Origin: Eledone cirrhosa
Taxonomy: Eukaryota
Length of the DNA: 64,000 bases
Assembly (NCBI GenBank): GCA_964016885.1
Contig: OZ024741.1
Location: 167,338,001-167,402,000 of the forward strand
Direction: 5' to 3'
A model generated the notes under the pieces. It did no database searches. It saw only the letters and a program-made list of their open reading frames with translations, and was not told the DNA's origin. Below, piece after piece: positions 4,892 to 62,576 of this stretch (positions within the stretch are counted from its first letter, which is position 1; each line of letters opens with the position of its first letter). The position numbers and the translations under genes were made by a program.

Positions 4892-4930
<39 letters not shown>

Positions 4931-5220
4931 CAAATAACGAAACGAAATTAAATTTCGTTTCGTTTGTAACTCACTTTTGTATGACTGACGCTTAAACAAT
5001 TAAGTTAAAAATGTACATCTACATATGCATACTGAAATACTAGTGTGTATATGAATACACACACGTATACATATGTAGGTGTACCAAGTCTTTCACTGGT
5101 CGCTTTACAGTGAGCGGCCCAGCTATTCTGTATGTAAACACACAGACAAACCGGTTTTTAGAGTCATACTGGTTTTTCGGGGGAACACCTTCCCTCTATT
5201 CTCCAGAAAGCCAGACAAGG

Positions 5221-5265
5221 AATATTGAACTAGTTTCGTTGTTGTTACAACTCATCAGCAATATT
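5221..5265 (-). ncRNA. Type I hammerhead ribozyme (family A, left arm)
   Basis: Exact reverse complement of 5663-5707. Confidence 0.85.
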
Positions 5266-5662
5266 TACCTATCTACCGGCCTTTCTGGAGAATTGTAAAA
5301 GCACATATCGTTATATGCTTTTTCTATGAAAATTAGTAGTGGGCAAACTAATTTGCATAGAGTGTGAGTACGCACCGGTTCAGCGGAGACGATAAAAACA
5401 AATAACGAAACGAATGTACATTTTTAACTTAATTGTTTTAACTTAATTGTTTTAACTTAATTGTTTAAGCGTCAGTCATACAAAAGTGAGTTACAAACGA
5501 AACGAAATTTAATTTCGTTTCGTTATTTGTTTTTATCGTCTCCGCTGAACCGGTGCGTACTCACACTCTATGCAAATTAGTCTGCCCACTACTAATTTTC
5601 ATAGAAAAAGCATATAACGATATGTGCTTTTACAATTCTCCAGAAAGGCCGGTAGATAGGTA

Positions 5663-5707
5663 AATATTGCTGATGAGTTGTAACAACAACGAAACTAGTT
5701 CAATATT
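5663..5707 (+). ncRNA. Type I hammerhead ribozyme (family A)
   Basis: AAUAUUG-CUGAUGA-GUUG(uaacaa)CAAC-GAAA-C(ua)G-UU/CAAUAUU: 7-bp stem I, canonical core, palindromic stem III ACUAGU, GUU cleavage triplet. Confidence 0.85.
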
Positions 5708-5930
5708 CCTTGTCTGGCTTTCTGGAGAATAGAGGGAAGGTGTTCCCCCGAAAAACCAGTATGACTCTAAAAACCGGTTTGTCTGTGTGTTTACATACAG
5801 AATAGCTGGGCCGCTTACTGTAAAGCGACCAGTGAAAGACTTGGTACACCTACATATGTATACGTGTGTGTATTCATATACACACTAGTATTTCAGTATG
5901 CATATGTAGATGTACTTTTTTAACTTAATT

Positions 5931-6021
<91 letters not shown>

Positions 6022-6064
6022 ATGTATATCATCATCATTTTACGTCCGCTTTTCCCTGCTTGCT

Positions 6065-6110
<46 letters not shown>

Positions 6111-6251
6111 CAGTAGAACTTGTTTTGGTAAAAACAGGAGTAAGTAGGAGAAAGCTCCCTACATTCATAGCTTGTAGTTACGATAGAGATTCAGTATAAG
6201 AATAACATTACAGCATTTTTTTAAATGTTATTCTTATATATATATATATAT

Positions 6252-6912
6252 CATCATCATCATCATCATCATCAACGTTTAACGTCCGTGTTCCACGCTT
6301 GCTTGGGTTTGGACGGCGGTTTTCCCACTTGAGGCAAGAGTGATTGTCTTGCTCGCATAGGACTGTCTGGCAGGTTTTCTACAGTTGGATGCCCTTCCTA
6401 ACACCAACCACGTTTACAGCGTGGACTGTGTGTTTTTTTTGTCGTGACACCTACACAGCCACATTACAGCGTGGACTGTGTGCTTTTTTTTGTCGTGACA
6501 CCTACACGATCTCATTTGTTTCGGCCTGGATGGTGTGGCACCAACATAACTTTACATAGAAGGGGGCGGTGTGGATGGGGTGGGGGTGGTGGGACGGGGT
6601 GTATTTTGTTAGAGATGCCTACTGAATGTAGTAGGTTTTACTTTGTATTTAGGTAAGGCGGGTCTTCTCTATTACTGAGTACCGCCAAAGGTCTCGGTCC
6701 AGTGACATTGTCTTGGTGAGGTGTAAGTGTGTGAGGTCGGAGTTTATCAGCTCGTCCCAGGTTTTTCTGGGTCTGCCTATTCCGTGGCTACCATCTATCT
6801 TTATTGCCCTGCACTTTGTTATACAGCTATCGTCCTTCATGCGCATCACATGACCATACCAACGTAGCCTTCTCTCGAGTAAACAACATCTGATCCCTCT
6901 TATTTCTAATTT
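6252..6912 (-). mobile_element. RTE-type LINE 3' fragment with (GAT)n tail
   Basis: ERRLRWYGHVMRMKDDSCITKC...GRPRKTW; 3' UTR matches the copies at 19968-20648 and 37588-38478. Confidence 0.85.
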
Positions 6913-7936
6913 TTATATATATATGTGTGTGTGTGTGTATATATATATACACACACACACACAGTTTCTGAAAGTCACTGAAGTTATTTCAGCGACCTCC
7001 GACCATGACCCACTCACTCAATGAAACAATAAGCTTGCACTTGTGAAACTGCATTCTATTGTTCAGAGTGCACATATTATAGTTATTCAGTGAGTACTAT
7101 GGCAGTGTTTTGGTAAAGATACCTCATGTATCCAACTCCTCAACAGATTCCATTTCTATGCAATATTCTGCCTACAACAGTTAATAAAACTGCAATATGC
7201 AGAGAATTGTGTAATATCAAGACATTATGCAATTGGGCTATTGCATGTCTTCAGCAGAAAAGAGCCATACTCAACACTTAGGTCTTAAGGTGTGCACAGT
7301 TGTATGTACTGCCAGTTTCCCAAATCTAGCTGTTCTATGCTGTCATGACATGTGACATATATATATGTATACATACATATATATTCAGCAGCAGCAGCAG
7401 CAGCATTTTACGTCCGCTTTTTCCCTGCTTGCAAGGATGGGACGGAAACTGATTCTGGCTTATATATATATATAATGTGCTAAACATTTATGCAATTATA
7501 TCAGAAATATAAACTATTAAAATATCATTCTTATTTTTAATCACTTCCACATGACACTAATCAACATAAACTATAAGGTTTCATTTATTCAAACTCTTAA
7601 TTTATCAAAATGCAAATTTCTCAGTTTGTATGTTCATATATCCTGTAAACAGGGTATACCTAGCATACCAACCCTAGACTCCAAAAATTAAATACATACA
7701 ATACTATTGCTCTCTCATTATTGACAGCATTGGTCCACTAGTGAAAGAAAGAAGGTACAAAAAAAGAAGGAAAAAGAAAGACAAAGAGACAGAATGAAAG
7801 AGAGAAAGAGAAAAGGAAGGAATACAGAAAGTGTTGGTGGTAGAATGACAGAAAAAGGAACAATATGTATGTGTGTTTGTTTTCCATCTGTTTTGCTCAT
7901 TTCTCCCCATTCCTTCCTCTTCTCACTCTTTATCTA

Positions 7937-7972
7937 TCTTCTGATGAAGGACTAGTGTCCGAAACGTTAAGA
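7937..7972 (+). ncRNA. Minimal type I hammerhead ribozyme (family B)
   Basis: UCUU-CUGAUGA-A-GGAC(uagu)GUCC-GAAA-CG-UU/AAGA, the classic Penelope-type minimal HHR with an ACGU palindrome. Confidence 0.8.
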
Positions 7973-8065
7973 CTCTTCCTGCTATTTCAAGTGTTAAACT
8001 AATATATTTCTTCAGTGTACTGTGTCATTTGCTTTGTTATTTCTGTTTACCTTTTACATATACAT

Positions 8066-15464: not shown

Positions 15465-15561
<97 letters not shown>

Positions 15562-15792
15562 GAAACACACAGATACATGCGGGGACACACATATATACAT
15601 GAATGCATCCGCACCCAACTGTGAGTTAAGGGTGCCAACTTCACCGATGTTGCTCAATGAATGACTGGGACAGACCAATTCTGTTTGAACTAGACTGAAC
15701 CAGTATCAGAGTTAAAAATACATTATGAAGAGAGAAGAAACATTTAGATATAATTAGTAATAAAATGTATCATACCTAAACTGTTCCTAAAT

Positions 15793-15880
15793 TCCTCGAC
15801 TACGTAGTTTCGTGGCATAAACAAAAACAATATATCAAAGATATAGAGTCCTTGCGAGGTCTGCCGACTTATCAAGAGGA
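15793..15880 (-). ncRNA. Type I hammerhead ribozyme with U3-A8 variant core (family F, copy 1)
   Basis: Reverse complement of 17219-17306. Confidence 0.75.
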
Positions 15881-16383
15881 TACCTCATTTTACTAGTCTC
15901 AAGAACGCGTCTACACGACGTGAGAAAGAATCCCAAAAGGCGGAGGGGGAGATAGTCACGCGATATAACGGTCGAGAAACAGAGCTAAGCCTCTTATAAC
16001 CACGAAGAAAATACCACGGAGGCGGAGGGGGTACTCATATCGAGGCCGCAGAAGAGGTAGTGAAGAAGGCGAGAAGTATGAGTAATGGAAGCTTTCCAGT
16101 TGTCCCCACACTTCAAAGATTGCTCGACCAGAGGGAGTTATTAATATATTTAGAAACACACAGATACATGCGGACACACACATATATACATGAATGCATC
16201 CGCACCCAACTGTGAGTTAAGGGTGCCAACTTCACCGATGTTGCTCAATGAATGACTGGGACAGACCAATTCTGTTTGAACTAGACTGAACCAGTATCAG
16301 AGTTAAAAATACATTATGAAGAGAGAAGAAACATTTAGATATAATTAGTAATAAAATGTATCATACCTAAACTGTTCCTAAAT

Positions 16384-16471
16384 TCCTCGACTACGTAGTT
16401 TCGTGGCATAAACAAAAACAATATATCAAAGATATAGAGTCCTTGCGAGGTCTGCCGAGTTATCAAGAGGA
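16384..16471 (-). ncRNA. Type I hammerhead ribozyme, U3-A8 core (family F, copy 2; G10.1 to C)
   Basis: Same as copy 1 except a substitution at 16459 that breaks the 10.1-11.1 pair. Confidence 0.65.
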
Positions 16472-17218
16472 TACCTCATTTTACTAGTCTCAAGAACGCG
16501 TCTACACGACGTGAGAAAGAATCCCAAAAGGCGGAGGGGGAGATAGTCACGCGATATAACGGTCGAGAAACAGAGCTAAGCCTCTTATAACCACGAAGAA
16601 AATACCACGGAGGCGGAGGGGTACTCATATCGGGGCCGCAGAAGAGGTAGTGAAGAAGGCGAGAAGTATGAGTAATGGAAGCTTTCCAGTTGTCCCCACA
16701 CTTCAAAGATTGCTCGACCAGAGGGAGTTATTAATATATTTAGAAACACACAGATACATGCGGACACACACATATATACATGAATGCATCCGCACCCAAC
16801 TGTGAGTTAAGGGTGCCAACTTCACCGATGTTGCTCAATGAATGACTGGGACAGACCAATTCTGTTTGAACTAGACTGAACCAGTATCAGAGTTAAAAAT
16901 ACATTATGAAGAGAGAAGAAACATTTAGATATAATTAGTAATAAAATGTATCATACCTAAACTGTTCCTAAATTCCTCGACTACGTAGTTTCGTGGCATA
17001 AACAAAAACAATATATCAAAGATATAGAGTCCTTGCGAGGTCTGCTTCTGCGGCCTCGATATGAGTACCCCCTCCGCCTCCGTGGTATTTTCTTCGTGGT
17101 TATAAGAGGCTTAGCTCTGTTTCTCGACCGTTATATCGCGTGACTATCTCCCCCTCCGCCTTTTGGGATTCTTTCTCACGTCGTGTAGACGCGTTCTTGA
17201 GACTAGTAAAATGAGGTA

Positions 17219-17306
17219 TCCTCTTGATAAGTCGGCAGACCTCGCAAGGACTCTATATCTTTGATATATTGTTTTTGTTTATGCCACGAAACTACGTAGT
17301 CGAGGA
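17219..17306 (+). ncRNA. Type I hammerhead ribozyme with U3-A8 variant core (family F, inverted copy)
   Basis: UCCUC-UUGAUAA-GU(c)GGCA...UGCCAC-GAAA-CUA(cg)UAG-UC/GAGGA; GUC triplet, palindrome ACUACGUAGU. Confidence 0.75.
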
Positions 17307-17375
17307 ATTTAGGAACAGTTTAGGTATGATACATTTTATTACTAATTATATCTAAATGTTTCTTCTCTCTTCATA

Positions 17376-17412
<37 letters not shown>

Positions 17413-17416
<4 letters not shown>

Positions 17417-18179
17417 AGTTAATATAAATTAATATATTTGATAAACACAAATACCAACATATCTGTGTTTGTATTGTAAACGACTAAGTTAGCTAGATTG
17501 AAAAATACTAATTATAATAATACAGTTTGCCTATCTCGATTTAAAATAATAAAAACAAAGCATATTGGCAAATGGCCGTGGTGCTTGGACAAATTTAAAT
17601 TTCAAAATCAAACCTGTTCCGTAGACAGGTTTAAACCTTAAAATCCAAATAAGTTTCGAAAAATGAAAAAGTGAAAGAATACCGCATTTCTATCTCCTCA
17701 GCAAGCACCAGAAAAATTGGTATGTTTCACTTCAAAATATTTAAAAAGACTGTTTAACGCACATGGTTTTTCACACATGGTTATCCAGTGTCTAGCTGCC
17801 CCATACTCGTGCTGCTAGAAATAACAGCCGTTTATATGGGGCTAAATTTAGCTCTACGTAAGGAGCAGTGATACTATTAATAATGAGTTCAAAACTCAGG
17901 CAGTCCTTTACAATGAAATAGCTCAAAGAAAGAAGTATTTCTGAGCCGTGTAATACAAGTTAATATAAATTAATATATTTGATAAACACAAATACCAACA
18001 TATCCGTGTTTGTATTGTAAACGACTAAGTTAGCTAGATTGAAAAATACTAATTATAATAATACAGTTTGCCTGTCTCGATTTAAAATAATAAATCAATA
18101 AAAACAAAGCATATTGGCAAATGGCCGTGGTGCTTGGACAAATTTAAATTTCAAAATCAAACCTGTTCCGTAGACAGGT
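17413..18179. repeat. Partial tandem (about 1.4 copies) of a 541-bp non-coding unit between (TA)n tracts
   Basis: 17413-17629 is repeated at 17954-18179. Confidence 0.85.
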
Positions 18180-18549
18180 ATATATATATATATATATATA
18201 TACTTTGGGCCGTATGTAGGGACAGCTACCACAATATACTGTATATCAGGGACGTTAAAAGACAGCCAAAATCAGTTCTGTATGAGCAAGACATGGTCAC
18301 CTGACCTGGCATTGCCCACAACAAGACAAACCGTCTAACCCATGCTAATGTTGAAGAATGGACGTAAAACAGTGATGATGATGATGATATGAAATATATA
18401 TATATATATGTATACACACACGCATATATATTTACATATACATATACATATGCATATATATGATGTATATATACATATCTAATATATATGTGTGTGTGTA
18501 TACATATATATAACATATAATATATAAATGTATATATTTATAAAATATA

Positions 18550-26113: not shown

Positions 26114-26445
26114 CAATCAATGGGATTCCAACTGTGACAATCCTGCCTTTATACAAGTACCTAAGACTACACCATTGAATGCACTCGTCATTATGGATTG
26201 GCAGTATCGGTAGAGGGTCAGACGCCATGCTTTGCAGCAAAGAGTTACGACCCTTTATGGTCTAAGTTCAAATCCCGCCGAGGTTAACTTTGCCTTTCAT
26301 CCTTACGGGGTCGATAAAATAAAGTACCAGTAATACACTGGGATAATTGCTGGCCTTGTGCCAAAAGTAGAAACAAAAATGTTACGTGGCGGGAGGGAAA
26401 TAGTTGGCTGCTATTTCTAGCAGGTTGTGGGAAGATAGGGGGCTA

Positions 26446-28890
26446 AGTAGCCGGTAAGAGGTTATGTAGCCAGTATGAGGGTACGTAGCCAGTAAGAGAC
26501 TATGTAGCCAGTAAAGGCTATGTAGCCGGTATGAGGCTACGTAGCGTACGAGGCTATGTCCGGTATGAGGCTATGTCCGGTATGAGGCTATGTCCAGTAT
26601 GAGGCAATGTAACCGGTATGAGGCAATGTAGCTGGTATGTGTTATGTAGCCGGTAAGAGACTATGTAGAGGGTAGAGGCTATGTAGCCGTTAAAAGGCTA
26701 TGTAGCCGGTAAGAGGCTATGCAGTCAGTAAGAAACTATGTAGCTGATAAAAGCTATGTAGCCAATATACGCTATGCAGCTGGTAAGAGGCTATGTAGCC
26801 GGTAAAAGGCTATGTAGTTGGTAAGAGGTTATGTAGCCGGTAAAAGCTATGTAGCCAATACGAGGCTATGTGGCTAGTAGAGGCTATCTAGCTTGTAAGA
26901 ATCTATGTAGTCGGTAAGAGGCTATGTAGTCGGTAAAATCTATGTAGTCGGTAAAGGCTATATAGCCAATAAAAAGCTATGTAGTCGGTAAGAGGCTATG
27001 TAGCCGGTAAAATTTATGCAGTCAGTATGAGCAATGTAGCCAATATTTAGCTGGAAAGAGGTTATGTAGCCGGTAAGCGGCTATGTAGTTGGTATGAAGC
27101 TACGTAACCAGAAAGAGACTGTGCAGCTGGTAAGAGGCTATATAGCCGTTTTACGGTGGGGAGGAGGGTGTTTTTCGTTGTTGGGACGTTTATCGTTAAA
27201 TGGGGCCCATTTTCATTGGGGAGGAGGTCCATTTTTCGTTGTGGAGGGTCTGTTTTTTGTTGGGGGTGAAAGCAGGGTGTGTTTTTCATTATGAGGTGGG
27301 CTGTGTAGCCGATAAGATATTATGTAGCAGGTATGAAGCTATGTAGCCGGATGAGGCTATGTAGTCGGTAGAAGTTATGTAGGGAATATGAGGTTATGTA
27401 GCCAGTGGAAGCTATGTAGTCAATATGAGGATTTGTAGCTGCTAAGAGGATATATAGCAGAAAAGTGGCTATGCAGGCCATAGAAGCTATGTAGGCAATA
27501 TGAAGCTATGTAGCCGGTAAAAGGCTATGTAGCCGGTAAGATGCTATGTAGCCAGTAAGATGCTATGTAATCGGTAAGAGGCTATGTAGCCGGAAAAAAG
27601 CTACGTAGACGGTAAAAGCTATGTAGTTGGTAAGTGGCTGTGGCCGGTAAGAGGCTATGTTGCCGGTAAGATGCTATATAGCCATTTTGGGTTGGGGGGT
27701 GTTCATTTTTCGTTGCAGTGGTCCTTTCTTCGTTGGGAGAGGGGGTCCGTTTTTGGTTAAGGGGTCATTTCTTTGTGGGGGGAAGTGAGGGGTGTCCGTT
27801 TTTCGCTGAAGGAGGAGGGTCCGTTTTTCGTTGAGGGGAGGGGTTGTTTTTCTTTGAGGGATGGGTATCCGTTTATCATCGGGTGGCGGGGGGCGGGGGC
27901 GTTTTCGTTAGGGATGGGGTTCGTTTTTCTTTGTGATTTGTGGTCTTTTGTTGGGGTGCATTTTTTGTTGGTGGGTCCGTTTTTCGATTGGCAGGGGGAC
28001 CATTTTTCGTTGGAGTGTCAGTATTTTTTGTTTTTGTTTTTTTAGTGTTGGGTTGAGGGGTGGAGTGTTTTCGTTTTTCGTACGGGGGGAGTCCAGTTTT
28101 CATTGAAGGTCGTGGGTCCATTTTTCGTTCGGCATGGGTCAGCGTTTTACGTTGGAGGGTTGGTTTTTCGTTGGAAGTTGATTCGTTTTTCGTTGGATGG
28201 GAGGGGGGTCCCTTTTTCGTTGTGAGGTCTGTTTTTCGAAGTGGAGTGTCTGTTTTTCGTTATGTGTGGGGGCTGTGTAGCCAGTATGAAGTTATGTAGC
28301 CGGTAAGTGGCTATGTAGCCGGTAAAAGATATGTCGCTGTTTTTCGATGGGGGGGGGGGGTCCGTTTTTCATTGGTGGAGCCCGTTTTTATGTGGGGGTG
28401 CGTTTTCTGTTGAAGAGGGAGGGCCGTTTTTTGTTGGGGTTTGGGGTCCGTTTTTCGTTGGGGGTCAGCATTTTGTTTGTTTGGGGGATGGGGGTTGAGG
28501 GGTGGAGTGTTTTCGTTTGTCGTAGGGGGGAGTCCATTTTACGCTGAAAGTGGGGGTTCCGTTTTTCGATGGGAGGGGGGGGGGGTCGTTGGGGGGTCCG
28601 TTTTTCGTTCGGGGGTTCCGATTTTCGTTATGAGTGGGGGCTGTGTAGCCGGTATGAGGTCATGTAGCCGGTAAGAAGCTATGTAGCCTGTAAGAGGCTA
28701 TGTAGCTGTTTTTCGTTGGGGGGTATCCGTTCTTTGTTGGGGTAATCCGTTTTCCGCTGGGAGTGCGTTTTTCATTGTGGGGTCCATTTTTCGTTCAGGG
28801 GTCCGTTTTCCGTTGAAGAGGGGGAGGGGGCGCTTTTTGTTGGAGTTTGGGGTCCGTTTTTTGTTGAAGGGTGGGTATCTGTTTTTCGAT
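26446..28890. repeat. Composite minisatellite: ~20-bp GGCTATGTAGCCGGTAAGA blocks alternating with GGGGGTCCGTTTTTCGTT blocks
   Basis: Type 1 at 26446-27148, 27299-27683, 28271-28337, 28640-28706; type 2 in between and up to 28890. Confidence 0.9.
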
Positions 28891-29481: not shown

Positions 29482-31860
29482 CAGTGGCGGATTGGGTCTA
29501 AAAATATTGGTTGCCAGATGAAGGGGGCCCACCTACATATAGTTTGCTATCATTTAATTTTTATAACAAATAAATAACATTTTCGAAAAATACATAAGTG
29601 GAAACAAAACAGCGCAATCAAGTTTTTGCAGAAAAAAATCTTACCTTCTCCAATAAAAAATATGTATTTTGCGAAATCCAGAGATTTTCAATAATGACCA
29701 GAGATCGACCCTAAATATTACTAATAGCTCTAGGAAAGCCATGAACGACAGCATATCTTTTTAACTTTGATTTTGAAAGTAGGTTTATAATTATCAATTT
29801 TCATTATACTTGTGTAGCTGTCTCGATGGCCTAGTTAGAGGAATCATAGACGGCGATGATCCTGGTCTGAAGTTTGATCCTAGTTGGGAGTAGGGTTCCC
29901 AGTAAACCTTTTCATTTTTTTTCTGTTGGTTATAAAATAAAAACTGAAAAGGTTACATGCACCTCTTGACCAGGATTGAAGCAAATTCCTTATTTTACTG
30001 CAGGAATAACAGAAAAACAACTACTATCACAATCAACAAAAACAATGCAAATTCCTTGCTACAAACGAAATAGTTAGAAATGGTAAATGATTTAATGAGA
30101 CACTTGTTTCTGCTTATTGTGCGATAACTTCTCCACATCAGGTGAAATATTTGTCGATGACAGGAGCAAAACATCATCCAGTTGTCGTCACGCAACCTTG
30201 TTCTTAAATGACTTTTAATATATTTCATTTTGGAAAAAAGTTGTTCACAAGCATATGTACTTCCAAATAATGATATCATCAGTTTCGCATTAGTCAAGAT
30301 GTTTTTATATTTTCCGCTTGGCAATATATATTTCTGGTAGAAATCAGCAGTGGATTCGAACTGAAATTTCGATTTCAAAGATTCGTCGCACTGTAAGTCC
30401 AACTGATATTCTTCTGCCACTTGCTCCACATCTGTTTCGTAAGGAGTACCAAATAACTTAAATAGAGTTCCATATTGCCGGAAGTCAGCAAAACGAGAGG
30501 AAAACTCGCCTCTCAAATCCTTAATAGAGCTCACAAAGATGTCTGGTATTATATCTCTCTTGTGATTTTGGAGACTTGGAAAATGAGAGTAGTTTCCTTT
30601 TTGAAGTTGTGATTCCCACAGTCGAAGTTTTCTCTCAAAAGCAGTAATTTGACCAAACATCTCAAATACAACCTTGTTCTTTCCTTGAAGCTCAAGATTC
30701 AAAGTGTTCATGTGAGTCGTGATGTCCACTAAAAAAGCTAACTTGACAACCCACTGTGGATCCTGAAAGTAAGAATTATCTTGGTCTTTGCTCTCTAAAA
30801 TCATAGAAATCTCTTCTCTCAATGCATATACTCGTTCTATCATTTTTCCGCGGCTAAGCCATCGAACATTTAAAAAATGGGTAAGGTCCCCATACTCTGC
30901 TTCAATTTGTTTTAGAAATTCTTGAAACTGGCGGTGATTTAGTCTTCTTGACAGTATAAAATTCACTGTTTTCACGACCACTGCCATGATGTCCTTAAAA
31001 TTCAGTGACTTTGCACATAATGCTTCTTGATGAATAATGCAATGAAGTTTGATTAGCTTTTGATCAATACCGATGTGGTTTTGGAGCAATGCAACAAACC
31101 CCTTTTTCTCTCCAACCATTGCTGGTGCTCCATCTGTGACTACTCCAGAAAGCTTTGATAAATTCAGATTCATTTCGGTAATCCATTTTATCATGCTCTC
31201 CAAAATATCTGCTCCAGTGCTAGTGTCCTTCATAGGAATCAATTGTATAAATTCTTCCACAATATCAAATGTTGGTGTTACACCGTCACAAACACTGCAA
31301 GTTGACAAGTATCCTTCATATCTGTGGTTTCATCGATAGCAATGGAATAATACTCCAGATTATTTAAAATGCCCTCCAAGCCACTTCTGACATTTGCTGC
31401 CAGCTCTTCAATTCGCCTTGTTACTGTTCTTGCCGATAAGCAAGAATAATTCCCTTTTTTCTGGACAAACAACATCTGCTACCTTCAACAATAATTCTTT
31501 GAAGAAATCTCCATCAGTAAAAGGTTTCATCCTTTCTGCAATTAGTTTTGACACCTCGTAGCTAGCACGAGTGTTTCGGTCACTTTCTTCAACTTTTGTA
31601 GTGAAAAAGAATGATTGTTACATTATTTCTCAGCCATGCAACTTCGTTTACTCGTGCTTTTCCAGTAAAACTGTTGTAATGATTATGACGAGTTTCATAG
31701 TGCCGTTTAATATTTGAAACTTTCTTCGCGGCAATGGTTTCTTGACAAATTAAGCAAACACATTTTCCGAAGTGCTCAATGAAAAATTAGCTAAGTGTCC
31801 AGCCACCGTTAAAAGTTCGGCACTCCAAATCCACTTTTCTTTTTGTTCAAACAAAAAAGA
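29482..31860 (-). mobile_element. hAT (Charlie/SPIN, GTF2IRD2-like) transposon with frameshifted transposase
   Basis: CLIC...NIKRHYETRH finger, YSIAIDETTD, TDGAPAM, HCIIHQEALC, VRWLSRG, FGSTYACEQLFS. Frameshifts near 31620, 31290 and 30180. hAT-like terminus CAGTGGCGGA at 29482. Confidence 0.88.
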
Positions 31861-32102
31861 TTTATGGAAAGGAAAAAGAACAAAAAGTATAATAATCAGA
31901 ATGAAGAAATAAGAAACAATGAAAACAAATGTAAATGCAAATAGAGTAATGCGATAAAATATGATAATTGTGAATAAATTATATAAAACCAGGTTTCTAA
32001 CGACGTTGTTAGATTAGGGTTGCCATTTGTTTTTTTAAACCACTTTCGACCTAATTCTAATAATAATAATTCACACTATTTAAGAACTAATCGTGGAAAA
32101 CC

Positions 32103-33735
32103 TGCATGCCTGGAAGAGGCACCACTGATGCCCTCTTCCTTGTGAGGCAATTACAGGAAAAGTACCTAGCTAAAAGTAAGCCACTCTACTTGGCATTTGT
32201 CGACCTTCAGAAAGCCTTTGACAGAGTTCCACGTGCTGTAATCTGGTGGGCTCTTAGAAAACTAGGAGTAGATGAATGGCTTGTGAAAGCGGTACAAGCC
32301 ATGTATAGGGGAGCAGTCAGAAAAGTTAGGATTAGCAATGAGTATAGCGAGGAATTTAGCGTACAGGTTGGGGTCCACCAGGGCTCTGTTCTTAGCCCTC
32401 TCCTGTTCATCATAGTCCTGCAGGCAATAACGGAGGAGTTTAAGACCAGATGCCCATGGGAACTCCTGTATACTGATGACCTCGCACTCATAGCTGAATC
32501 TATGGTAGAACTAGAGAATAAATTCCAAACCTGGAAGCAGGGACTAGAGAGAAAGGGTCTCAAAGTCAACATGACCAAGACTAAGGTCCTTGTAAGTAGA
32601 CGAGAAAACAGAACCCAGATCCCCTCGGGGAAATGGCCTTGTTCAGTATGTAGGAAAGGTGTAGGTAGGAACTCCATTCTCTGCCCCAAATGCAAACAAT
32701 GGGTACACAAGAGATGTAGCGGGATCTCAGGAAGCTTAATTAAGAATGTAGGATTCACATGCAGCAGCTGTGCCGAAACAGCAAGCAGCAAACAGCCACA
32801 GGAAACAAGTACCACTAATCTCTGGGAGGGCCCTGTAGAAACAGTAGACAGCTTCTGCTACCTAGGTGACCGAATTGGCAGCGGAGGTGGGTGTTCAGAA
32901 AGTACAATAACTAGGGTAAGAACGGGATGGAAGAAGTTTAGGGAACTACTACCACTGCTAGCTGCAAAAGGCTTCTCCCTCAGAATGAAAGGCACACTGT
33001 ATGATGCGTGTATCCGAACAGCGATGTTGCATGGTAGTGAGACCTGGGCGCTGAAGGTGGAAGACTTGCGTAGATTAGAGAGAAACAAAGCCTGCATGCT
33101 CCGATGGATGTGTAACAGTAATATACATGAACGACAAAGCATAAATGAATTGAGAGAGAGACTGAGCATAAGAGGAATCAAATGCTGTGTGCAGGAGAGG
33201 CGGTTGCGCTGGTATGGACATGTGATGCGTATGAAGGATGACAGCTGCATAAAAAGGTGCAGAGCACTAGAAGTTGATGGTAACCGCGGAGTGGGGAGAC
33301 CCAAGATGACCTGGGATGAGGTGATAAAAGCCGACCTTACCCAACTACACCTCTCAAAGACAATGACACACGACCGTGACTTCTGGCGTCACGCAGTAAT
33401 ACAGAGTACTCGACCTCCCATGGGTACATGCTGAAGCATATAAACAATATGCCCCCACACCCCCCACTGCAGGGTGGTCGTGGAGGTGCCACGGCAAAAA
33501 AGCACCCAGCCCACACTGTAAAGTGGACGTGTAGGCGCCATGAAAAAGCACCCAGCACTCACTGTAAATGAGGTTGGTGTTAGGAAGGGCATCCAGCTGT
33601 AGAAATCAAGCCAGATCAGTTCCTGTATGAGCAAGGCATGGTCAGCCGACCAGACACTGCACACAACAGGACAACCCGTCTAACCCATGCTAGCGTGGAA
33701 GAACGGACGTAAAACGGTGATGATGATGATGATGA
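32103..33735 (+). mobile_element. 5'-truncated RTE-clade LINE; open 442-codon RT to C-terminal frame (32106-33434), 3' UTR, (GAT)n tail
   Basis: FVDLQKAFDRV, GVHQGSVLSPLLF, LYTDDL, YLG, RRLRWYGHV, GRPKMTW; internal CSVC...CPKC..WVHKRC...CSSC finger. Confidence 0.93.
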
Positions 33736-36768: not shown

Positions 36769-37281
36769 ATTTCTATATTAAATATATATATATATACATA
36801 TATTTTTATTTTATTTTTTTTTTTCATTTTACATCCGCTTTTTCCTGCTTGCAAGGGTGGGACGGAAACTGATTCTGGCTTGATTTCTACAGCTGAATGC
36901 CCTTCTTAACACCAACCTCATTTACAGTGAGTGCTGGGTGCTTTTTTTCCGTGGCGCCTACACGACCACTTTACAGTCGAAGGATAGGGACCCCTCATTT
37001 CTACAGGTGAGTAAACTGGAGCAATGTGAAATAAAGTGTCTTGCTCAAGGAAACAACACATCACCCGGTCTGAGAATTGAATACACAACCTTTCGATTGC
37101 AAGGCCAATCCTCTAACCACTAAGCCATGATATATATATTTATTATACTTATTCACCAACCAACCAAATTACTTCTCTAAAAACCTAGCATTTCGAGCCA
37201 CTTTTTTCCATATAAAACAGAAGTAACATTCAAACACCAACCAGATGTGAGAAAAACCACAAACCCTCCATCTCAATTCTA

Positions 37282-37317
37282 CTTTTGAAAAGCAGAAGAA
37301 CTGCGAAACCGGTAAAG
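37282..37317 (+). ncRNA. Minimal hammerhead ribozyme with U3-A8 core (family L, copy 1)
   Basis: CUU-UUGAAAA-GCAG(aagaa)CUGC-GAAA-CCGG-UA/AAG; the surrounding ~150 bp is repeated at 62336-62482. Confidence 0.65.
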
Positions 37318-37391
37318 GAACCAAATAAATATATATTTTTAAAAAAAAAGTCTCCAGTTGCATTTTCGATTTCATCTTTTTTCCTTATATA

Positions 37392-38744: not shown

Positions 38745-39835
38745 TCAGTTGCCAGATGTCGGAGCTTCAATGTATCCATCCCCAGGGAAGCAAGGCGTTC
38801 AGAGTATGGTAGATGCCTGATGGAGGGTATTCACTTGGTTGTATGTCTCTGAACTGTTTCCAGGCGGTCAATGTTCTGAGCAAGATAGGGGTTCCAGACT
38901 GGTGATGCAAATTCTAAGTGTGGTCGCATCACAGCCATGTACACCCTTAAATAGATAGCTGGAGAGCGGCTGACAAAGGTCTTGCTGAGTGATGCTAAGA
39001 CACCCTCGACCTTCTTCACAATTTTAGAGACGTGCTTCATCCAACGCAAATCGCTGCTGACAGTAATGCCCAGGTCACGTTCACAAGAAAACTTCTTGAT
39101 ATTAGTGTTGTGGAGGGAGTATGTGGACGTTGGGTTTTTACCCCCAAAATGCATGGTGGTACACTTGTCCACAGCCAGCTTGAGTTGCCAGTCTGTGATC
39201 CATTGTTGCATTGTGTCCAGGTCAGATTGCAGGCAAGATCTATAGTGTTCAGGATCTGTCCTTTTTATCTCAAGGTACAGTTTCATGTCATCTGCATATT
39301 TCAGTACTGTGGCATTCTTTAAGTTGGCATCTATGTCATTAATATATGCCACAAACAAAAGGGAGCCAAGAACAGATCCCTGTGGTACACCAGATGGCAT
39401 CTCATACAGTGAGGAATGCTGTCCTAGAACCGTGACTACCTCTCTTTGACTGAGAATGAAGGACTTCAACCAGTTAAAAAGATCACCTATTGCAGAAAGT
39501 TTTGCCATAAGTTTTTTGTGTGGAACAGAATTGAAAGCTTTAGCAAAGTCAAGGTAAACAATATCCACCCATGAGCCGCCATCAGTGATCCGGGTGATGT
39601 CTTCAAGAAACTTGATAAGTTGATCACAGCAGCTGGAGTTAGGGATAAATCCAAATTGCGAGGGCCGGATAAGACTGTGAGAGTTCCAGAAGTTCCAAAG
39701 TGTTTCTCTGACACAGGATTCCATCAGTTTGGCAATGCAGCTAGTAAGACTGACTGGACGATAGTTGACAGGTGATGTGCGGTCACCCTTTTTGAACAGA
39801 GGAATGACACTGGCAGTTTTCCATTGTTCACAAAA
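38745..39835 (-). mobile_element. CR1-like LINE reverse transcriptase fragment
   Basis: WKTASVIPLFKKG...NYRPVSLTS, YLDFAKAFNSVPH, SGVPQGSVLG, YADD, ERDLG, RPHLEFASPVWNP (ORF 38831-39724). Confidence 0.9.
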
Positions 39836-41323
39836 TTGGAAGAAGAGTGATAGCTGGTGCAGAAGGAAGTACCCACCACGTTTGAGAAGCAGGTACGTAA
39901 CACCATTAAGACCAAACTAACAGGCCTGCTCTGACATAGAACAGTATCACATGCAAGGATTGCAGAGTAAACTACATTACTAAATAACACTGATCGCAGA
40001 ATAGAGTCCTGGACTAAACAGCAGTGATCCAGTAATATAAGATGAAAATTTGCATATAACTTACAAATAGATAGTATAATGACTACTAGGCAGTCAAGCC
40101 CAAAACCAATGGCTACTTAATTGTAGGACTGGGAAGGAAACCTCCTATGACCAACTGCTAATACATTGTGGGACTGGGGAAAATGCCTCATTAGTCTAGA
40201 AAGAGGACCTTCTAGTAGAAATGTCAAAATTGTTAGCGTGCCTGGTAACTGACAGGTCAAGCCTAGTCATATATTGTGTCATGCTGGTTTAGTTTGGGAA
40301 TTACTTGAAGAGTACACATTGCTTGTAGAATACTTAACTACTTGCACATTAATTCATTATTCTTTTATTCATTTACAGGTTTCAATCATTAGGATGTGGC
40401 CATGATGGAGCACTGCCTTGAAACGATTTACTCATTAACATTGACCCCAGTATTTCTGGTACTTATTTTATTGATCCCTTTTTTATTGAACATTATGTTA
40501 GATAATCAAAAACAGAGACACAAATATAAAAAGATATACAGACACATATGTATTTACTCCTATATACATATATGCATATTTATGTGAGCATGGAAAATAG
40601 ATGTAAAATAGTGATGATGATGATGATGAAGAGTAAGAAAATTCATGATCAGCTTCTGCAGTTTCTGTCAACCTAGGTCCACTCACAAAACATTAATTGG
40701 CTTTAGACTATAGTAAAACATACTTGCCCAAGATGCTGTGCAGTGGGACTGAACTCAGAACCATGTAGTTGTGAAGTAAACTTCTTAACCATATAACCAT
40801 GCCTACACCTATGTTGACTGGACATTTAGTTGATCAGACAACTGAATATTCATCATTGAAACTGACGGAGGATCCATCATCATTATATTAGCAGAGAGTT
40901 ATGGTGTTAGTGGTGGTGGTGGTGATGTGGTGATAATGATGATGATGGTAATGATAGTATTTGTAGTGGTGGTGGTGGTGGTGATGTGCTGATAATATGA
41001 AATAGCTACAGTTATTGTTTTTTTATATGAGAGGATGGGTAAACAAAAGTTTGTTAATCAATAAACATTTACAACATATTGATTAAACACTAATAGAGAA
41101 ACAAATGAACAAGGAAAGAATTTGAATGAATATTTATAAATATTGACAACTTAATCCTGCTTAAACCTTATATTTGCATCTTCAAGTAATTGTACCCTTT
41201 GTTATCTCACTAATTCACAGGTGCTGCACATTTCATAAATCACTGTTAACTACAATTGAAATTAAATATTTAAATAAGATATACATAAAGCCCTGTATAA
41301 TCCCTCTGTCAAGAATATTATTC

Positions 41324-46900: not shown

Positions 46901-49900
46901 TACTTATACAACTATATATATATATGTGTGTGTGTGCATGTTGTGAGTGTGTGTGTGTGTGTAAAACATAGGATTGTCATGGATTGTCATGGATTGTCTT
47001 TGATCATTGGAATGTCAGTCATTTCAGGGTTGATCTAAATCTAAACAACAACCTTTGAGTAACTATCCTCTCAGAGTTGCTTCTTTTGATTGGATTTTGT
47101 TATTCTTTTTTAACTGTCATCATCATTCTCAGCAGTGCTAGCTTCGTCTTCTTTATAATCATTATCAACATGATTTGAAATTTTCATTTTATTAGAAGAG
47201 TCATTTCAGCCATTTAAAAACACAAAAACTGTTAAATTCACTTTACATTTATCATTTATTGCTTGGAGTCAACATTTTCGTCACACTATTTGCGATCTCG
47301 TCACTGATAGTTTCCACAGACCAATGAAAATTTTGATACCAAAATATAAATGATAAATATAGAGGCATGTTAGCCATTTGGTCATTTTGGGCAATGTCCA
47401 ATGGTCTGCTGGACTGTATTAAAGAAAAAATAGCTAATAAAGTGTCATGAAAAACTTCATAAAGTTAGAAACAAAAATTGAAAATACCTTAGCTAAGCAA
47501 TGAAAACACACCCCTAGCCCTCAACAATCTATTAGTCAGTGTCAACTTGATTGAACAGTGAAAACACACCTCTGGCTGTCATCAGTCAGCAGTCTTTTAT
47601 TTGTTTTTACAGAGATGAGAAGGGAAAACACACTTCTGGCTCTCAGCAGTCAGCTGTCTGTTAGTCAGTATCACTTGTTTGAAGATCCTGTTTGCTTCTG
47701 ATTAAATGTAAAGTGAAGTTAATGATTTTTGTGGGCTTTTCAATGGCTAAAATGACTCTTCCATGCTGTTATTTTTTTAGTTTCAACAGTCACAGATCAA
47801 GTTATTTGCCAGACAAATACAACTGTAGCTAAAATGACTCTTCCACATTGTAAATGCCTTACTCAGATTTAGTTACCTGCCAAACAGTTTCAATGCACAG
47901 TGTCAAATCAAGTGTTTGCCAGAAAAGTACAATTCTGCCATTTTATTCTTGTGTTTTTATTTATTATTCCAGCTAATGATGAATTTGTTAAGATACTCGG
48001 AGTATCAATTAGAGGCCATGACCTCATGAGAATACGTAACATTGATGTGGAAGACTGTCTTCATAAATGCAAGAATTTGCCAGAATGTTCCATGGTAGAA
48101 TACAAAAAAGAACAGGCCAAATGTGATTTATCCAATGTCACTTACTCTACATACCCACTCAGTGTGAATGCCTTTGGATGGGACTTCTACCAGAAAAACC
48201 CAGGTATGTTGTTAAAAGTATACTTAATTTTATTATTCCAAAGCAAGGTATTAACCTGCCTGAAACCACTCTGAGTTTGATACAGAACTGCCCATTTTAA
48301 AGTGTTCATACTTGTTTAAAACTTTCCATCGTAATTGTATTAAGAATGTTTTGTTCAGCAATGTTCAAAACCATAGCTTAATAATAATTGTTTCTACCTT
48401 TGGCACAAGGCCAGCAATTATCCCAGTGTATTACTGGTACTTTATTTTATTGACCCTGTAAGGATGAAAGGCAAAGTTAACCTCGACAGGATTTGAACTC
48501 AGACTGTAAAGGGACGTAACTATGCTGGAAAGCATGGTGTCCGACCCTCTACCGATACTGCCAACCCATTAATAATAATGATTTCTGATTTAGGCACAAG
48601 GCCAACAGTTTTGGGAAAGAGCAAAGTCGATCGAATAGATTGCAGTGCATTACTGGTGCTTTATTTTATCAATCCCATAATAATTTTGGGGGAGGGGAAG
48701 ATAATGATTTCTACTATAGGCAAAAGGGGAGGAGAAAGTTGATTAAATCAACTCCAGTGCATTGCTGGTGGTTTATTTTATCAACCCCGTCAAGATGAAA
48801 GGCAAAGTTAACCGTGGTGGGATTTGACCCAGAACGTAAAGGGCCATAACTCTATGCTATAAAGTATGGTGTCTGTTGCTTTACCGATACTTCCAATTCA
48901 CTGCCAATTACTAGCTTACTATTAATAAAGTTAGTTATTTTATTAAATCCCTTCAAATTTTTGATTATTTTCAAAATTAATAGAAACACATGAGTAGTGT
49001 CTTTCATTAGAAATATGGTAACAAAAGGGTTAAAATGTATGTTGTCGTATTCAAATGGATTTTCTTATGAACTTTTTCCAGTTTATTGCAACTTGAAATG
49101 TGGACCTAGGGAATGGTGCCAGGTTAAGAACTCCCAGCAAAAGTGTGTTTGTTATCCAGGGTGTGTGAAACTACCCTCAGGAAATGGATGTTATGGTAAG
49201 ATATGAGCTTGTTCATGATGTTGCTGCTGTCAGCTTTTTAGTTCTATTTTCGTTTTTTATATTGCAACACTTGATCACATACACAAAGCACACACATATA
49301 TGACTGCACATACACACACACACACACAGGCACACAACATACAAACATCCCGTAAACACACACAAATACATGTAAACACAAACACAGGCACCCACACATA
49401 CAGTGGATACATATACACAAACACACATATACAAACATACACACACACACACACATACAGATACTCGTGCATATATATAAAATTCGTTTGTGGCTTGATG
49501 GTTAGGAAGTTTACTTCACAATCCTGAGCTTCAGGGTTGAGTTCTGTCCCACTGCATGTCATCTTGGGCAGGTGCCTTTTACCATAGCATTGGGGAGACC
49601 TAAGTATTTTCAGTGAAATTGGATAGACAGACATTGTATGTAAGCTGCTCTATATCTGTAAAATAAATTAGGAACCTTGTTACATCATTTCACACATATT
49701 CCACATGAGAATTACATTAACCCTTTAGCATTTAAACTGGCCATATCCGGCCAGAATTCTCTCACCTCTCTCTGTTCAAACTGGCCATAACTGGCCGAAG
49801 TTATTGTTCTCAAAATAAATAACATCAAAATCTCATAGATTCGATAATTACGTGAGTGAAGCCTTTACCACAAAAATACAATAGTATATATATAGAATAA

Positions 49901-62239: not shown

Positions 62240-62367
62240 TACATATATAGTTTTGCAAGACATTTTATCTGAAAACGTGTGTTGAAACAGATATTGTTAT
62301 ACTTTGGGAGGGTCATTCCATGTTTTTTGTTGGTAGAGAAAAACCACAGACCCTCCATCTCAACTCA

Positions 62368-62405
62368 CCTTTTGAAAAGCAGAAGAACTGCGAAACCGGT
62401 AAAGG
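62368..62405 (+). ncRNA. Minimal hammerhead ribozyme with U3-A8 core (family L, copy 2)
   Basis: CCUU-UUGAAAA-GCAG(aagaa)CUGC-GAAA-CCGG-UA/AAGG; 4-bp stems I and II, palindrome ACCGGU. Confidence 0.7.
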
Positions 62406-62538
62406 AACCAAATAAATATATATATTTTTTAAAAAAATAAGACTTCGGTTGCATTTTCGATTTCATCTCTTTTTCTTTATACTTCCACTCGTGTAGGACA
62501 CCTCGGTTATTTTTCATTTTGTAAAAAAAAAACCTCAC

Positions 62539-62576
<38 letters not shown>

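What the first reader, a model, noticed from the sequence alone, without database searches (positions are those of the whole stretch)
15555..17380. Young 590-bp tandem element whose hammerhead has the rare compensatory U3-A8 core and a branched stem II
Seen: the core reads UUGAUAA rather than CUGAUGA, within otherwise intact geometry (stem I UCCUC/GAGGA, GAAA, stem III CUAcgUAG, GUC site). Loop II holds two sub-hairpins (CCUcgcaAGG and UAUAUCuuuGAUAUA). Known: positions 3 and 8 form a tertiary Watson-Crick pair, and U3-A8 preserves it. Inference: the double change suggests selection for activity, standard CUGANGA searches would miss this family, and the near-identical copies point to recent spread.
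Basis: partly seen in the sequence, partly recalled or inferred. Interest (0 to 1): 0.8.

Follow-up and report, generated by a model that had tools for sequence, protein, structure and literature searches.

The report
Two-armed hammerhead retroelement from RNA circles
This is one of thousands of copies of a short non-coding repeat that carries a predicted self-cutting RNA motif with an already known core variant and sits in TA repeats as two back-to-back arms ending at two different fixed points, a pattern which suggests that a Penelope-type enzyme likely copied one edited RNA circle into both DNA strands.

Summary
The sequence observation is mostly right. The unit is 591 bp, non-coding, and carries a type I hammerhead with core UUGAUAA. 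6,322 of 6,350 genomic cores have both U3 and A8. An older sister subfamily, 23% diverged, keeps all 42 core and stem positions, so the motif is under selection.

U3-A8 is not new: it is published as a natural variant, and an autonomous Penelope-like element (PLE) in this genome has about 6,800 more such cores. Stem II is better read as one long unbranched hairpin.

The locus is two head-to-head arms in (TA)n, one ending 80 nt (site A) and one 244 nt (site B) after the cleavage site. All 57 independent two-armed insertions with both ends at a fixed site are A+B. Variants are usually shared by all units of both arms, and these inherited variants are A>G-biased on the ribozyme strand (28 vs 10 T>C; single-unit variants 9 vs 20).

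Best reading: a non-autonomous PLE-mobilised retrozyme, likely twin-primed on one A-to-I-edited monomeric RNA circle. Cleavage, expression and circles are untested.

The parts
15468..15558 (.). (TA)n microsatellite, left half of the insertion target
   Evidence: 112 of 114 arm 3' ends abut (TA)n
15553..17045 (-). Arm B: 1,493 bp, 2.5 tandem units, 3' end at fixed site B (unit position 591, 244 nt after the cleavage site), truncated 5' end at unit position 281
15554..16144 (-). Unit copy 1 (591 bp, non-coding; longest ATG-started frame 75 aa)
15793..15880 (-). Intact type I hammerhead of copy 1 (U3 = 15875, A8 = 15870, C17 = 15798)
16145..16734 (-). Unit copy 2 (590 bp)
16384..16471 (-). Hammerhead of copy 2 with a single-unit G10.1>C change at 16459 that breaks the first pair of stem II
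16735..17045 (-). Partial copy 3; holds only the 3' half of the hammerhead (no U3-A9 core)
17045..17045 (.). Head-to-head (5'-to-5') junction of the two arms, 1-nt overlap
17045..17381 (+). Arm A: 337 bp (unit positions 91-427), 3' end at fixed site A, 80 nt after the cleavage site
17219..17306 (+). Intact type I hammerhead: stem I 17219-23/17302-06, core UUGAUAA 17224-30, stem II GU(C)GGC 17231-36 with GCCAC 17283-87, GAAA 17288-91, palindromic stem III 17291-17300, predicted cleavage after C17301
17244..17278 (+). Unbranched extension of stem II (8 bp + 2x2 internal loop + 6-bp hairpin); varies mostly by A-U to G-U changes
17379..17414 (.). (TA)n microsatellite, right half of the target

Best explanation
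This is a non-coding, hammerhead-carrying repeat of about 6,000-8,000 ribozyme copies that inserts into (TA)n as two head-to-head arms ending at two fixed sites, and it is likely a non-autonomous retrozyme that a Penelope-like element's enzyme copies from a monomeric RNA circle by priming once from each cut DNA strand. Steps. (1) Inferred: a tandem array is transcribed on the ribozyme strand. (2) Predicted, with selection on the motif shown: the U3-A8 hammerheads cut it to 591-nt monomers, probably as dimers through the palindromic stem III. (3) Inferred: a host ligase closes the monomer, and ADAR edits some adenosines. (4) Target shown, enzyme inferred: a Neptune-like PLE protein cuts both strands of a (TA)n. 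(5) Pattern shown, mechanism inferred: one DNA end primes at site A and the other at site B, 164 nt further on; each copies round the circle for 22 nt to about 5 laps and stops at an arbitrary point. (6) Pattern shown: the two cDNA ends join through a few bases of microhomology, giving the inverted junction. Single-armed copies would be events in which only one priming was fixed.
For: TWO-SITE RULE. Of 62 head-to-head junctions in 95 loci, 58 are A+B (57 independent), 0 A+A, 0 B+B and 4 have an end elsewhere (p about 1e-17 against a free choice). A lies left in 29 and right in 28; either arm can be the longer. In 16 of 57 neither arm is contained in the other, so simple fold-back copying is not enough. 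Junction overlaps are mostly 1-5 nt. PROCESSIVE TEMPLATE. 98 of 114 arms cross at least one cleavage site and 42 cross two or more. MONOMER BOTTLENECK. Over 95 loci, variants shared by all covering units number 287, partly shared 17, single-unit 201; at sites covered by 3 or more units, 73/17/70. There are 27 whole-insertion haplotypes in 40 multi-unit loci. A 27-nt variant stretch of L151 occurs 7 times in the genome, all in that one insertion and in both arms. RNA POLARITY AND EDITING. In 78 loci under 3% diverged, inherited variants are 28 A>G vs 10 T>C on the ribozyme strand (p=1.3e-5); single-unit variants are 9 vs 20 (Fisher p=0.001). L151 carries 7 A>G among 10 differences. SELECTION. 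0 of 42 vs 135 of 549. The circular monomer folds at z=-4.6 against 30 shuffles. PARTNER CLASS. RT plus C-terminal GIY-YIG frames of 844-1,096 aa with DKG and CxxC motifs are present. One such family has its own U3-A8 hammerhead and the same two-end build in 5 fetched loci, read by eye, with similar end motifs. LITERATURE. A PLE protein cleaves and extends both strands, starts at two internal sites and is predicted to be a dimer (PMC11167929). Animal retrozymes form circles (PMC7229834) and derive from PLE pLTRs (bioRxiv 10.64898/2026.07.22.740005).
Against: No cleavage, transcript or circle was observed. In the Anolis PLE, hammerhead mutants did not affect insertion and unprocessed RNA was the main substrate in vitro (PMC11167929). 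Only 1 of 9 Xenopus retrozyme dimers cleaved in vitro (bioRxiv 2026). No autonomous PLE with alignable homology to the unit was found among 50 GIY-YIG loci of 10,597 candidates (best z 2.6), so the partner is unidentified. 17 partly shared variants, several in adjacent units, show that some duplication or conversion happens after insertion, which could also homogenise arrays. The source of L151 could be missing from this assembly. ADAR-type support beyond the strand bias is weak: pairing p=0.019 by rank but 0.33 by threshold, homoplasy p=0.044. 36 arms are single. Four junctions are exact fold-backs (0.7 expected), which fits some self-priming. The stem II extension shows no covariation beyond shuffles (332 of 500).
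Confidence: 0.68

Rival explanations
1. Same non-autonomous PLE partner and same two-site priming, but the template is an uncleaved linear multimer; the hammerhead is needed at another step or only occasionally, and arrays are homogenised by inheritance from uniform source loci plus unequal crossing-over or conversion.
For: Arms run through cleavage sites and their 5' ends do not cluster there (6 of 124, 6.5 expected). Unprocessed RNA was the substrate in vitro (PMC11167929). Adjacent-unit partial variants exist. Local amplification by unequal crossover is the model discussed in bioRxiv 10.64898/2026.07.22.740005.
Against: An RNA edit in one unit of a linear multimer would give a single-unit variant, yet the A>G excess lies only in variants shared by all units. 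L151's genome-unique variants are in all 7 units of both inverted arms. Only 1 mosaic variant recurs between loci without being fixed anywhere.
Confidence: 0.2
2. One priming only; the inverted arm arises by self-priming or template switch onto the new cDNA (fold-back), and the tail is trimmed at resolution, possibly from an antisense template as proposed for rotifer PLEs.
For: 4 of 57 junctions are exact fold-backs, 0.7 expected; in 41 of 57 one arm is contained in the other. The self-priming and antisense model is in PMC3846280; tail formation by endonuclease resolution is in PMC8557442.
Against: In 16 of 57 neither arm contains the other. Either site can end the longer arm. The strand of the A>G excess points to a ribozyme-sense template.
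Confidence: 0.07
3. The U3-A8 motif is a dead or incidental hammerhead; the family is a SINE-like or satellite repeat spread by other means.
For: No activity data. The unconstrained fold of 17205-17320 is not the hammerhead fold and is no more stable than shuffles (z -0.37).
Against: 0 of 42 core and stem differences across 23% divergence; 99.6% of cores carry both changes; U3-A8 ribozymes are reported active (PMC3088659); PLE-type ends.
Confidence: 0.05

Closest known systems
Animal non-LTR retrozymes (Cervera and de la Pena 2020, PMC7229834; Li et al. 2026, bioRxiv 10.64898/2026.07.22.740005)
   Same: Non-coding tandem unit with one type I hammerhead per unit, dispersed arrays of thousands of copies, low GC, co-occurring PLEs; 591 bp lies inside the reported 51-972 bp range.
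   Different: U3-A8 core and a 57-nt stem II domain; the sections read describe neither (TA)n targeting, two-armed insertions, fixed 3' ends nor edited whole-insertion haplotypes. Circles are proven for those species, not here.
Endonuclease-positive Penelope-like elements, Neptune-like (Craig et al. 2021, PMC8557442; Arkhipova et al. 2013, PMC3846280)
   Same: Partial tandems, an inverted 5'-truncated copy, a 'tail' at one end only, microsatellite targets, hammerhead near the 3' end.
   Different: No ORF. The tail is 164 nt instead of 30-40 nt. 'Often at one end only' is here an exceptionless rule in 57 of 57. No sequence homology to a local PLE was found.
Anolis Poseidon PLE in vitro (Frangieh et al. 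2024, PMC11167929)
   Same: Both target strands are cut and extended, AT-rich targets, two internal start sites that define the tail, predicted protein dimer.
   Different: In vitro the start site did not differ between strands and the ribozyme was dispensable; here each insertion uses one of each site and the ribozyme is conserved.
Natural U3-A8 hammerheads (Perreault et al. 2011, PMC3088659; Cervera and de la Pena 2014, PMC4209133)
   Same: Same compensatory core pair; palindromic short stem III suited to dimer cleavage; bulged base near the foot of stem II.
   Different: The Schistosoma U3-A8 motifs are minimal, heterogeneous and mostly single; these are homogeneous, tandem and have a long stem II.
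L1 twin priming (recalled; PMC2837659 seen only as a listing)
   Same: Inverted insertion from two primings joined by microhomology.
   Different: In L1 the second priming site is variable and the first arm stops near it (recalled); here both sites are fixed and arm 5' ends are unrelated to the other site (8 of 119 within 15 nt, 6.2 expected).

Membership tests
Type I hammerhead ribozyme | Three stems around core positions 3-9, GAAA and NUH, stem I open | tested here: met
   stems I, II, III 99-100% paired in 20 haplotypes
Type I hammerhead ribozyme | Watson-Crick pair between positions 3 and 8 | tested here: met
   U3-A8 in 6,322 of 6,350 cores; the literal C3-G8 consensus is not met (0 copies)
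Type I hammerhead ribozyme | Match to an Rfam hammerhead model | tested here: not met
   no hit at E<=10; model coverage of this variant is the likely reason (inference)
Type I hammerhead ribozyme | Self-cleavage after position 17 | not testable with these tools
   indirect only: conservation
Animal non-LTR retrozyme | Tandem non-coding units, each with a type I hammerhead | tested here: met
   this particular locus lacks two consecutive intact ribozymes, many others have them
Animal non-LTR retrozyme | Dispersed copies and co-occurring autonomous PLEs | tested here: met
   first 100 matches fall in 54 loci over 57 Mb; RT + GIY-YIG frames
Animal non-LTR retrozyme | Expressed as monomeric linear and circular RNA | not testable with these tools
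   no RNA data could be examined; indirect genomic signs
Non-autonomous PLE derivative | PLE insertion signature: inverted 5'-truncated arm, one-sided tail, microsatellite target | tested here: met
Non-autonomous PLE derivative | Sequence homology to the pLTR of an autonomous PLE | tested here: inconclusive
   none among 50 GIY-YIG loci of 10,597 candidates; only short end motifs and the U3-A8 core are shared
Autonomous PLE | ORF with RT and GIY-YIG endonuclease | tested here: not met
   longest stop-free frame in the unit 86 aa
Plant LTR retrozyme | Type III hammerhead in LTRs flanking a unique region | tested here: not met
   type I topology, tandem and inverted build

The most novel reading that the evidence does not exclude
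The genome records, insertion by insertion, that a Penelope-like enzyme dimer binds ONE ADAR-edited, ribozyme-made RNA circle asymmetrically and reverse-transcribes it by rolling circle from both cut strands, one subunit always starting at site A and the other at site B. This would explain the PLE 'tail' and inverted pLTR as one rule, fix the template as sense-strand and circular, and make A-to-I editing the main source of heritable change in a retroelement family.
Probability: 0.4. Interest if true: 0.8.

Novelty: new variant of a known kind. Interest (0 to 1): 0.58.

Why it matters
The headline feature (U3-A8) is known and would score low alone. What matters is the family as a natural data set. 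That circular RNAs are the templates of retrozyme insertion is a hypothesis in PMC7229834. How PLEs make inverted repeats and one-sided tails is called unresolved in PMC8557442, and whether the template is sense or antisense was left open in PMC3846280. Thousands of young, multi-unit, two-armed insertions with two start sites 164 nt apart make all three questions countable in silico. They also give a 591-nt substrate for in vitro tests with a local PLE protein. A practical lesson: at least 13,000 hammerheads in this genome have U3-A8 cores and escape CUGANGA descriptors.

Tried and rejected
Rfam: no hammerhead hit in the finding; the miRNA-like hits are microsatellite artefacts.
Free folding of 17205-17320 does not give the hammerhead and is no better than shuffles; the fold appears once core pairs are enforced.
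The branched stem II was rejected. Covariation for the unbranched model is not above shuffles either.
A C3-G8 ancestor was sought with two tight patterns and not found; looser relatives would be missed. Nine loci picked by the 3' half of the ribozyme gave U3-A8 cores (one with A9>U) or truncations, mostly from a subfamily with a change at the stem II bulge.
Clustering of arm 5' ends at the other priming site or at the cleavage site: not found.
Partner PLE by homology: not found. L130 looked like a chimera with a PLE but is a nested insertion. A loose end in run X6 joining the unit to PLE sequence is an untested lead.
Sequencing runs: no RNA holder listed. Contigs of four runs under three organism labels cover the unit and list no other letter at positions 3 or 8; contigs drop rare variants.
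Depletion of inherited variants in the ribozyme within the young family (4 of 44 vs 142 of 547) was set aside because many loci were chosen by a core pattern; the sister test replaces it.
Host taxon was not determined; atlas taxa do not settle it.
Lunse et al. 2017 (PMC5785218) is not held and may describe similar variants. No supplements were read; those of PMC4209133, PMC7229834 and PMC11167929 and the closed bioRxiv ones may bear on novelty.
Earlier-findings look-ups returned nothing.

Full report
1. OBSERVATION. The hammerhead described is present at 17219-17306 on the + strand with core UUGAUAA and C17 at 17301. The locus is an insertion in a (TA)n microsatellite (15468-15558 and 17379-17414) made of two diverging arms joined 5' to 5' at 17045: a minus-strand arm of 2.5 units (15553-17045) and a plus-strand arm of 337 bp (17045-17381). 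The unit is 591 bp and non-coding (longest stop-free frame 86 aa). Two of four ribozyme copies are intact; copy 2 has G10.1>C and copy 3 is truncated. Rfam does not detect the motif.

2. FAMILY SIZE AND CORE. The host is an animal-sized genome of 3.0 Gb; its taxon was not determined. Exact patterns with fixed flanks give 6,336 cores with U3, of which 14 lack A8 (8 G, 4 U, 2 C), and 14 cores without U3, all with A8 (8 C, 4 G, 2 A). So 6,322 of 6,350 have both changes and none is C3-G8. The 3' half of the ribozyme matches 7,708 times. The first 100 core matches group into 54 loci in 57 Mb, which extrapolates to roughly 3,000 loci. A tight pattern for a C3-G8 sibling found nothing.

3. SELECTION AND STRUCTURE. 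A sister subfamily was retrieved by its 3' region, not by the ribozyme. Over 25 of its loci it differs from the window unit at 135 of 549 positions outside the core and stems and at 0 of 42 inside (p=2.5e-5); 23 of 23 covering loci are U3 and A8. Neither model shows covariation beyond shuffles. Energies favour the unbranched form by 7.7 kcal/mol. Stem III is a 10-nt palindrome, the type reported to cleave as dimers (PMC4209133 and PMC6765202, passages).

4. U3-A8 IS KNOWN AND COMMON HERE. Perreault et al. report natural U3-A8 covariation and prior in vitro activity (PMC3088659, passages). Cervera and de la Pena found about 1,300 such motifs through a Schistosoma PLE (PMC4209133, passages). In this genome an autonomous PLE (RT plus C-terminal GIY-YIG, DKG and CxxC motifs, hence Neptune- or Nematis-like by the criteria in PMC8557442) carries a different minimal hammerhead with U3-A8: 6,844 matches, 100 of the 100 listed being U3-A8. 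Two further U3-A8 motif families lie beside GIY-YIG hits. The pair may therefore be inherited from a PLE lineage and need not have been gained by this family (inference).

5. THE TWO-SITE RULE. I mapped arms in 95 loci: 41 from best-scoring or pattern hits (biased to young, long copies) and 54 taken by position on contig C1. 3' ends fall at unit position about 427 (site A, 80 nt after cleavage) or about 591 (site B, 244 nt after). Of 62 head-to-head junctions 58 are A+B, 0 A+A, 0 B+B and 4 have another end; one A+B locus is a duplicate, leaving 57. Each set alone gives 30 of 30 and 28 of 28 among junctions with both ends at A or B. 112 of 114 ends abut (TA)n. There are also 36 single arms. Arm 5' ends are unrelated to the other site or to the cleavage site. 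In 16 of 57 neither arm contains the other; 4 are exact fold-backs. The autonomous PLE shows the same build with ends about 70 and 130 nt after its cleavage site in 5 loci read by eye, with like motifs: a pyrimidine tract plus AUA, and UUUCUAA before the TA run. [quoted passage not shown] The feature is thus a known PLE signature, here with a 164-nt tail and no exception.

6. TEMPLATE. 98 of 114 arms cross a cleavage site, up to five times, so the template is circular or uncleaved. After dropping 20 loci that had been chosen for core variants, variants present in every covering unit number 287, partly shared 17 and single-unit 201; 40 multi-unit loci hold 27 haplotypes. One stretch with three A>G changes from L151 exists only in that insertion, in 7 units of both arms. 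Inherited variants are strand-biased: 28 A>G vs 10 T>C in 78 young loci, against 9 vs 20 for single-unit variants (Fisher p=0.001); the bias holds at three divergence cut-offs. Errors of the reverse transcriptase or later DNA mutations would first appear in single units, so the bias points to a change on the RNA before repeated copying. A-to-I editing is the known process with this signature (established knowledge). Neighbour, pairing and homoplasy tests are only weakly in favour. The window's own insertion carries three variants in all covering units, two of them A>G.

7. MECHANISM. Shown: anatomy, copy number, conservation, target, two-site rule, whole-insertion haplotypes, strand bias. Inferred: transcription, dimer cleavage, circularisation, editing, use of a PLE protein, rolling-circle copying from both strands. 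Against: no RNA evidence, ribozyme dispensable in the Anolis system, 1 of 9 Xenopus dimers active, no homologous partner in 50 of 10,597 GIY-YIG candidates, some post-insertion homogenisation. I put about 0.9 on a PLE-mobilised non-autonomous element and 0.68 on the full model with a circular template.

8. COMPARISON AND NOVELTY. It works like, and meets the testable features of, animal non-LTR retrozymes (PMC7229834, passages and Discussion; bioRxiv 10.64898/2026.07.22.740005, parts 1-3 of 5). Expression as circles could not be tested. Searches for an account of the strict two-site pairing, of twin priming in PLEs, of edited retrozyme copies or of cephalopod retrozymes returned no listing that describes them; only listings were seen for most hits, subscription journals are not held, PMC5785218 could not be read and no supplements were opened. 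PMC13282606 (passages) mentions no ribozyme or retrozyme. L1 twin priming and ADAR preferences are recalled.

9. VERDICT. The value lies in the insertion statistics, which turn open questions on PLE and retrozyme mobilisation into testable ones. New variant of a known kind; interest 0.58.

Noticed in passing
window 4926-5933: Second hammerhead element with canonical CUGAUGA core (5258 minus, 5670 plus), also two inverted arms in (TA)n with different 3' ends about 70 nt apart.
   Followed up: partly
window 17412-18182, motif about 17577-17710 minus strand: Third hammerhead-like family directly beside the finding: CUGAGGA core, 8-9 bp stem I, very long stem III (fold z -3.9), partial tandem of period 541; similar motifs in L214 and L215. 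No Rfam hit.
   Followed up: partly
window 37138-37389 and 62336-62551: 3' fragments of the autonomous PLE's pLTR with its U3-A8 minimal hammerhead, one ending at each of that family's two fixed ends.
   Followed up: partly
window 7941 (+): Another canonical minimal hammerhead-like motif (CUGAUGA, 2-nt loop III) found by pattern scan.
   Followed up: no
L197 2281-8440: Near full-length PLE with two pLTRs of about 1.1 kb and a 938-aa RT + GIY-YIG frame, inserted in (TA)n; candidate class of mobilising enzyme.
   Followed up: partly
L203, L201, L193, L214 and others: PLE-associated hammerhead-like motifs with U3-A8 and GCAA in place of GAAA.
   Followed up: no
G000 C1, one search list: Many pairs of the PLE hammerhead lie head-to-head 55-137 bp apart, suggesting a recurrent fold-back junction just upstream of that ribozyme.
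   Followed up: no
run X6, loose end at window 15849: A 95-nt contig joins the unit to sequence like the PLE pLTR; could be a mixed two-armed insertion or a nested one.
   Followed up: no
window 29995-31329, 32091-33434, 38831-39916: A transposase-like frame (by eye) and two RT frames of LINE-type elements.
   Followed up: no
window 47873-55792 (+): Cysteine-rich short frames that look by eye like exons of a secreted VWD/TIL-domain protein gene (labels recalled, not tested).
   Followed up: no
window 26441-28875: 19-bp minisatellite arrays with strong GC skew.
   Followed up: no
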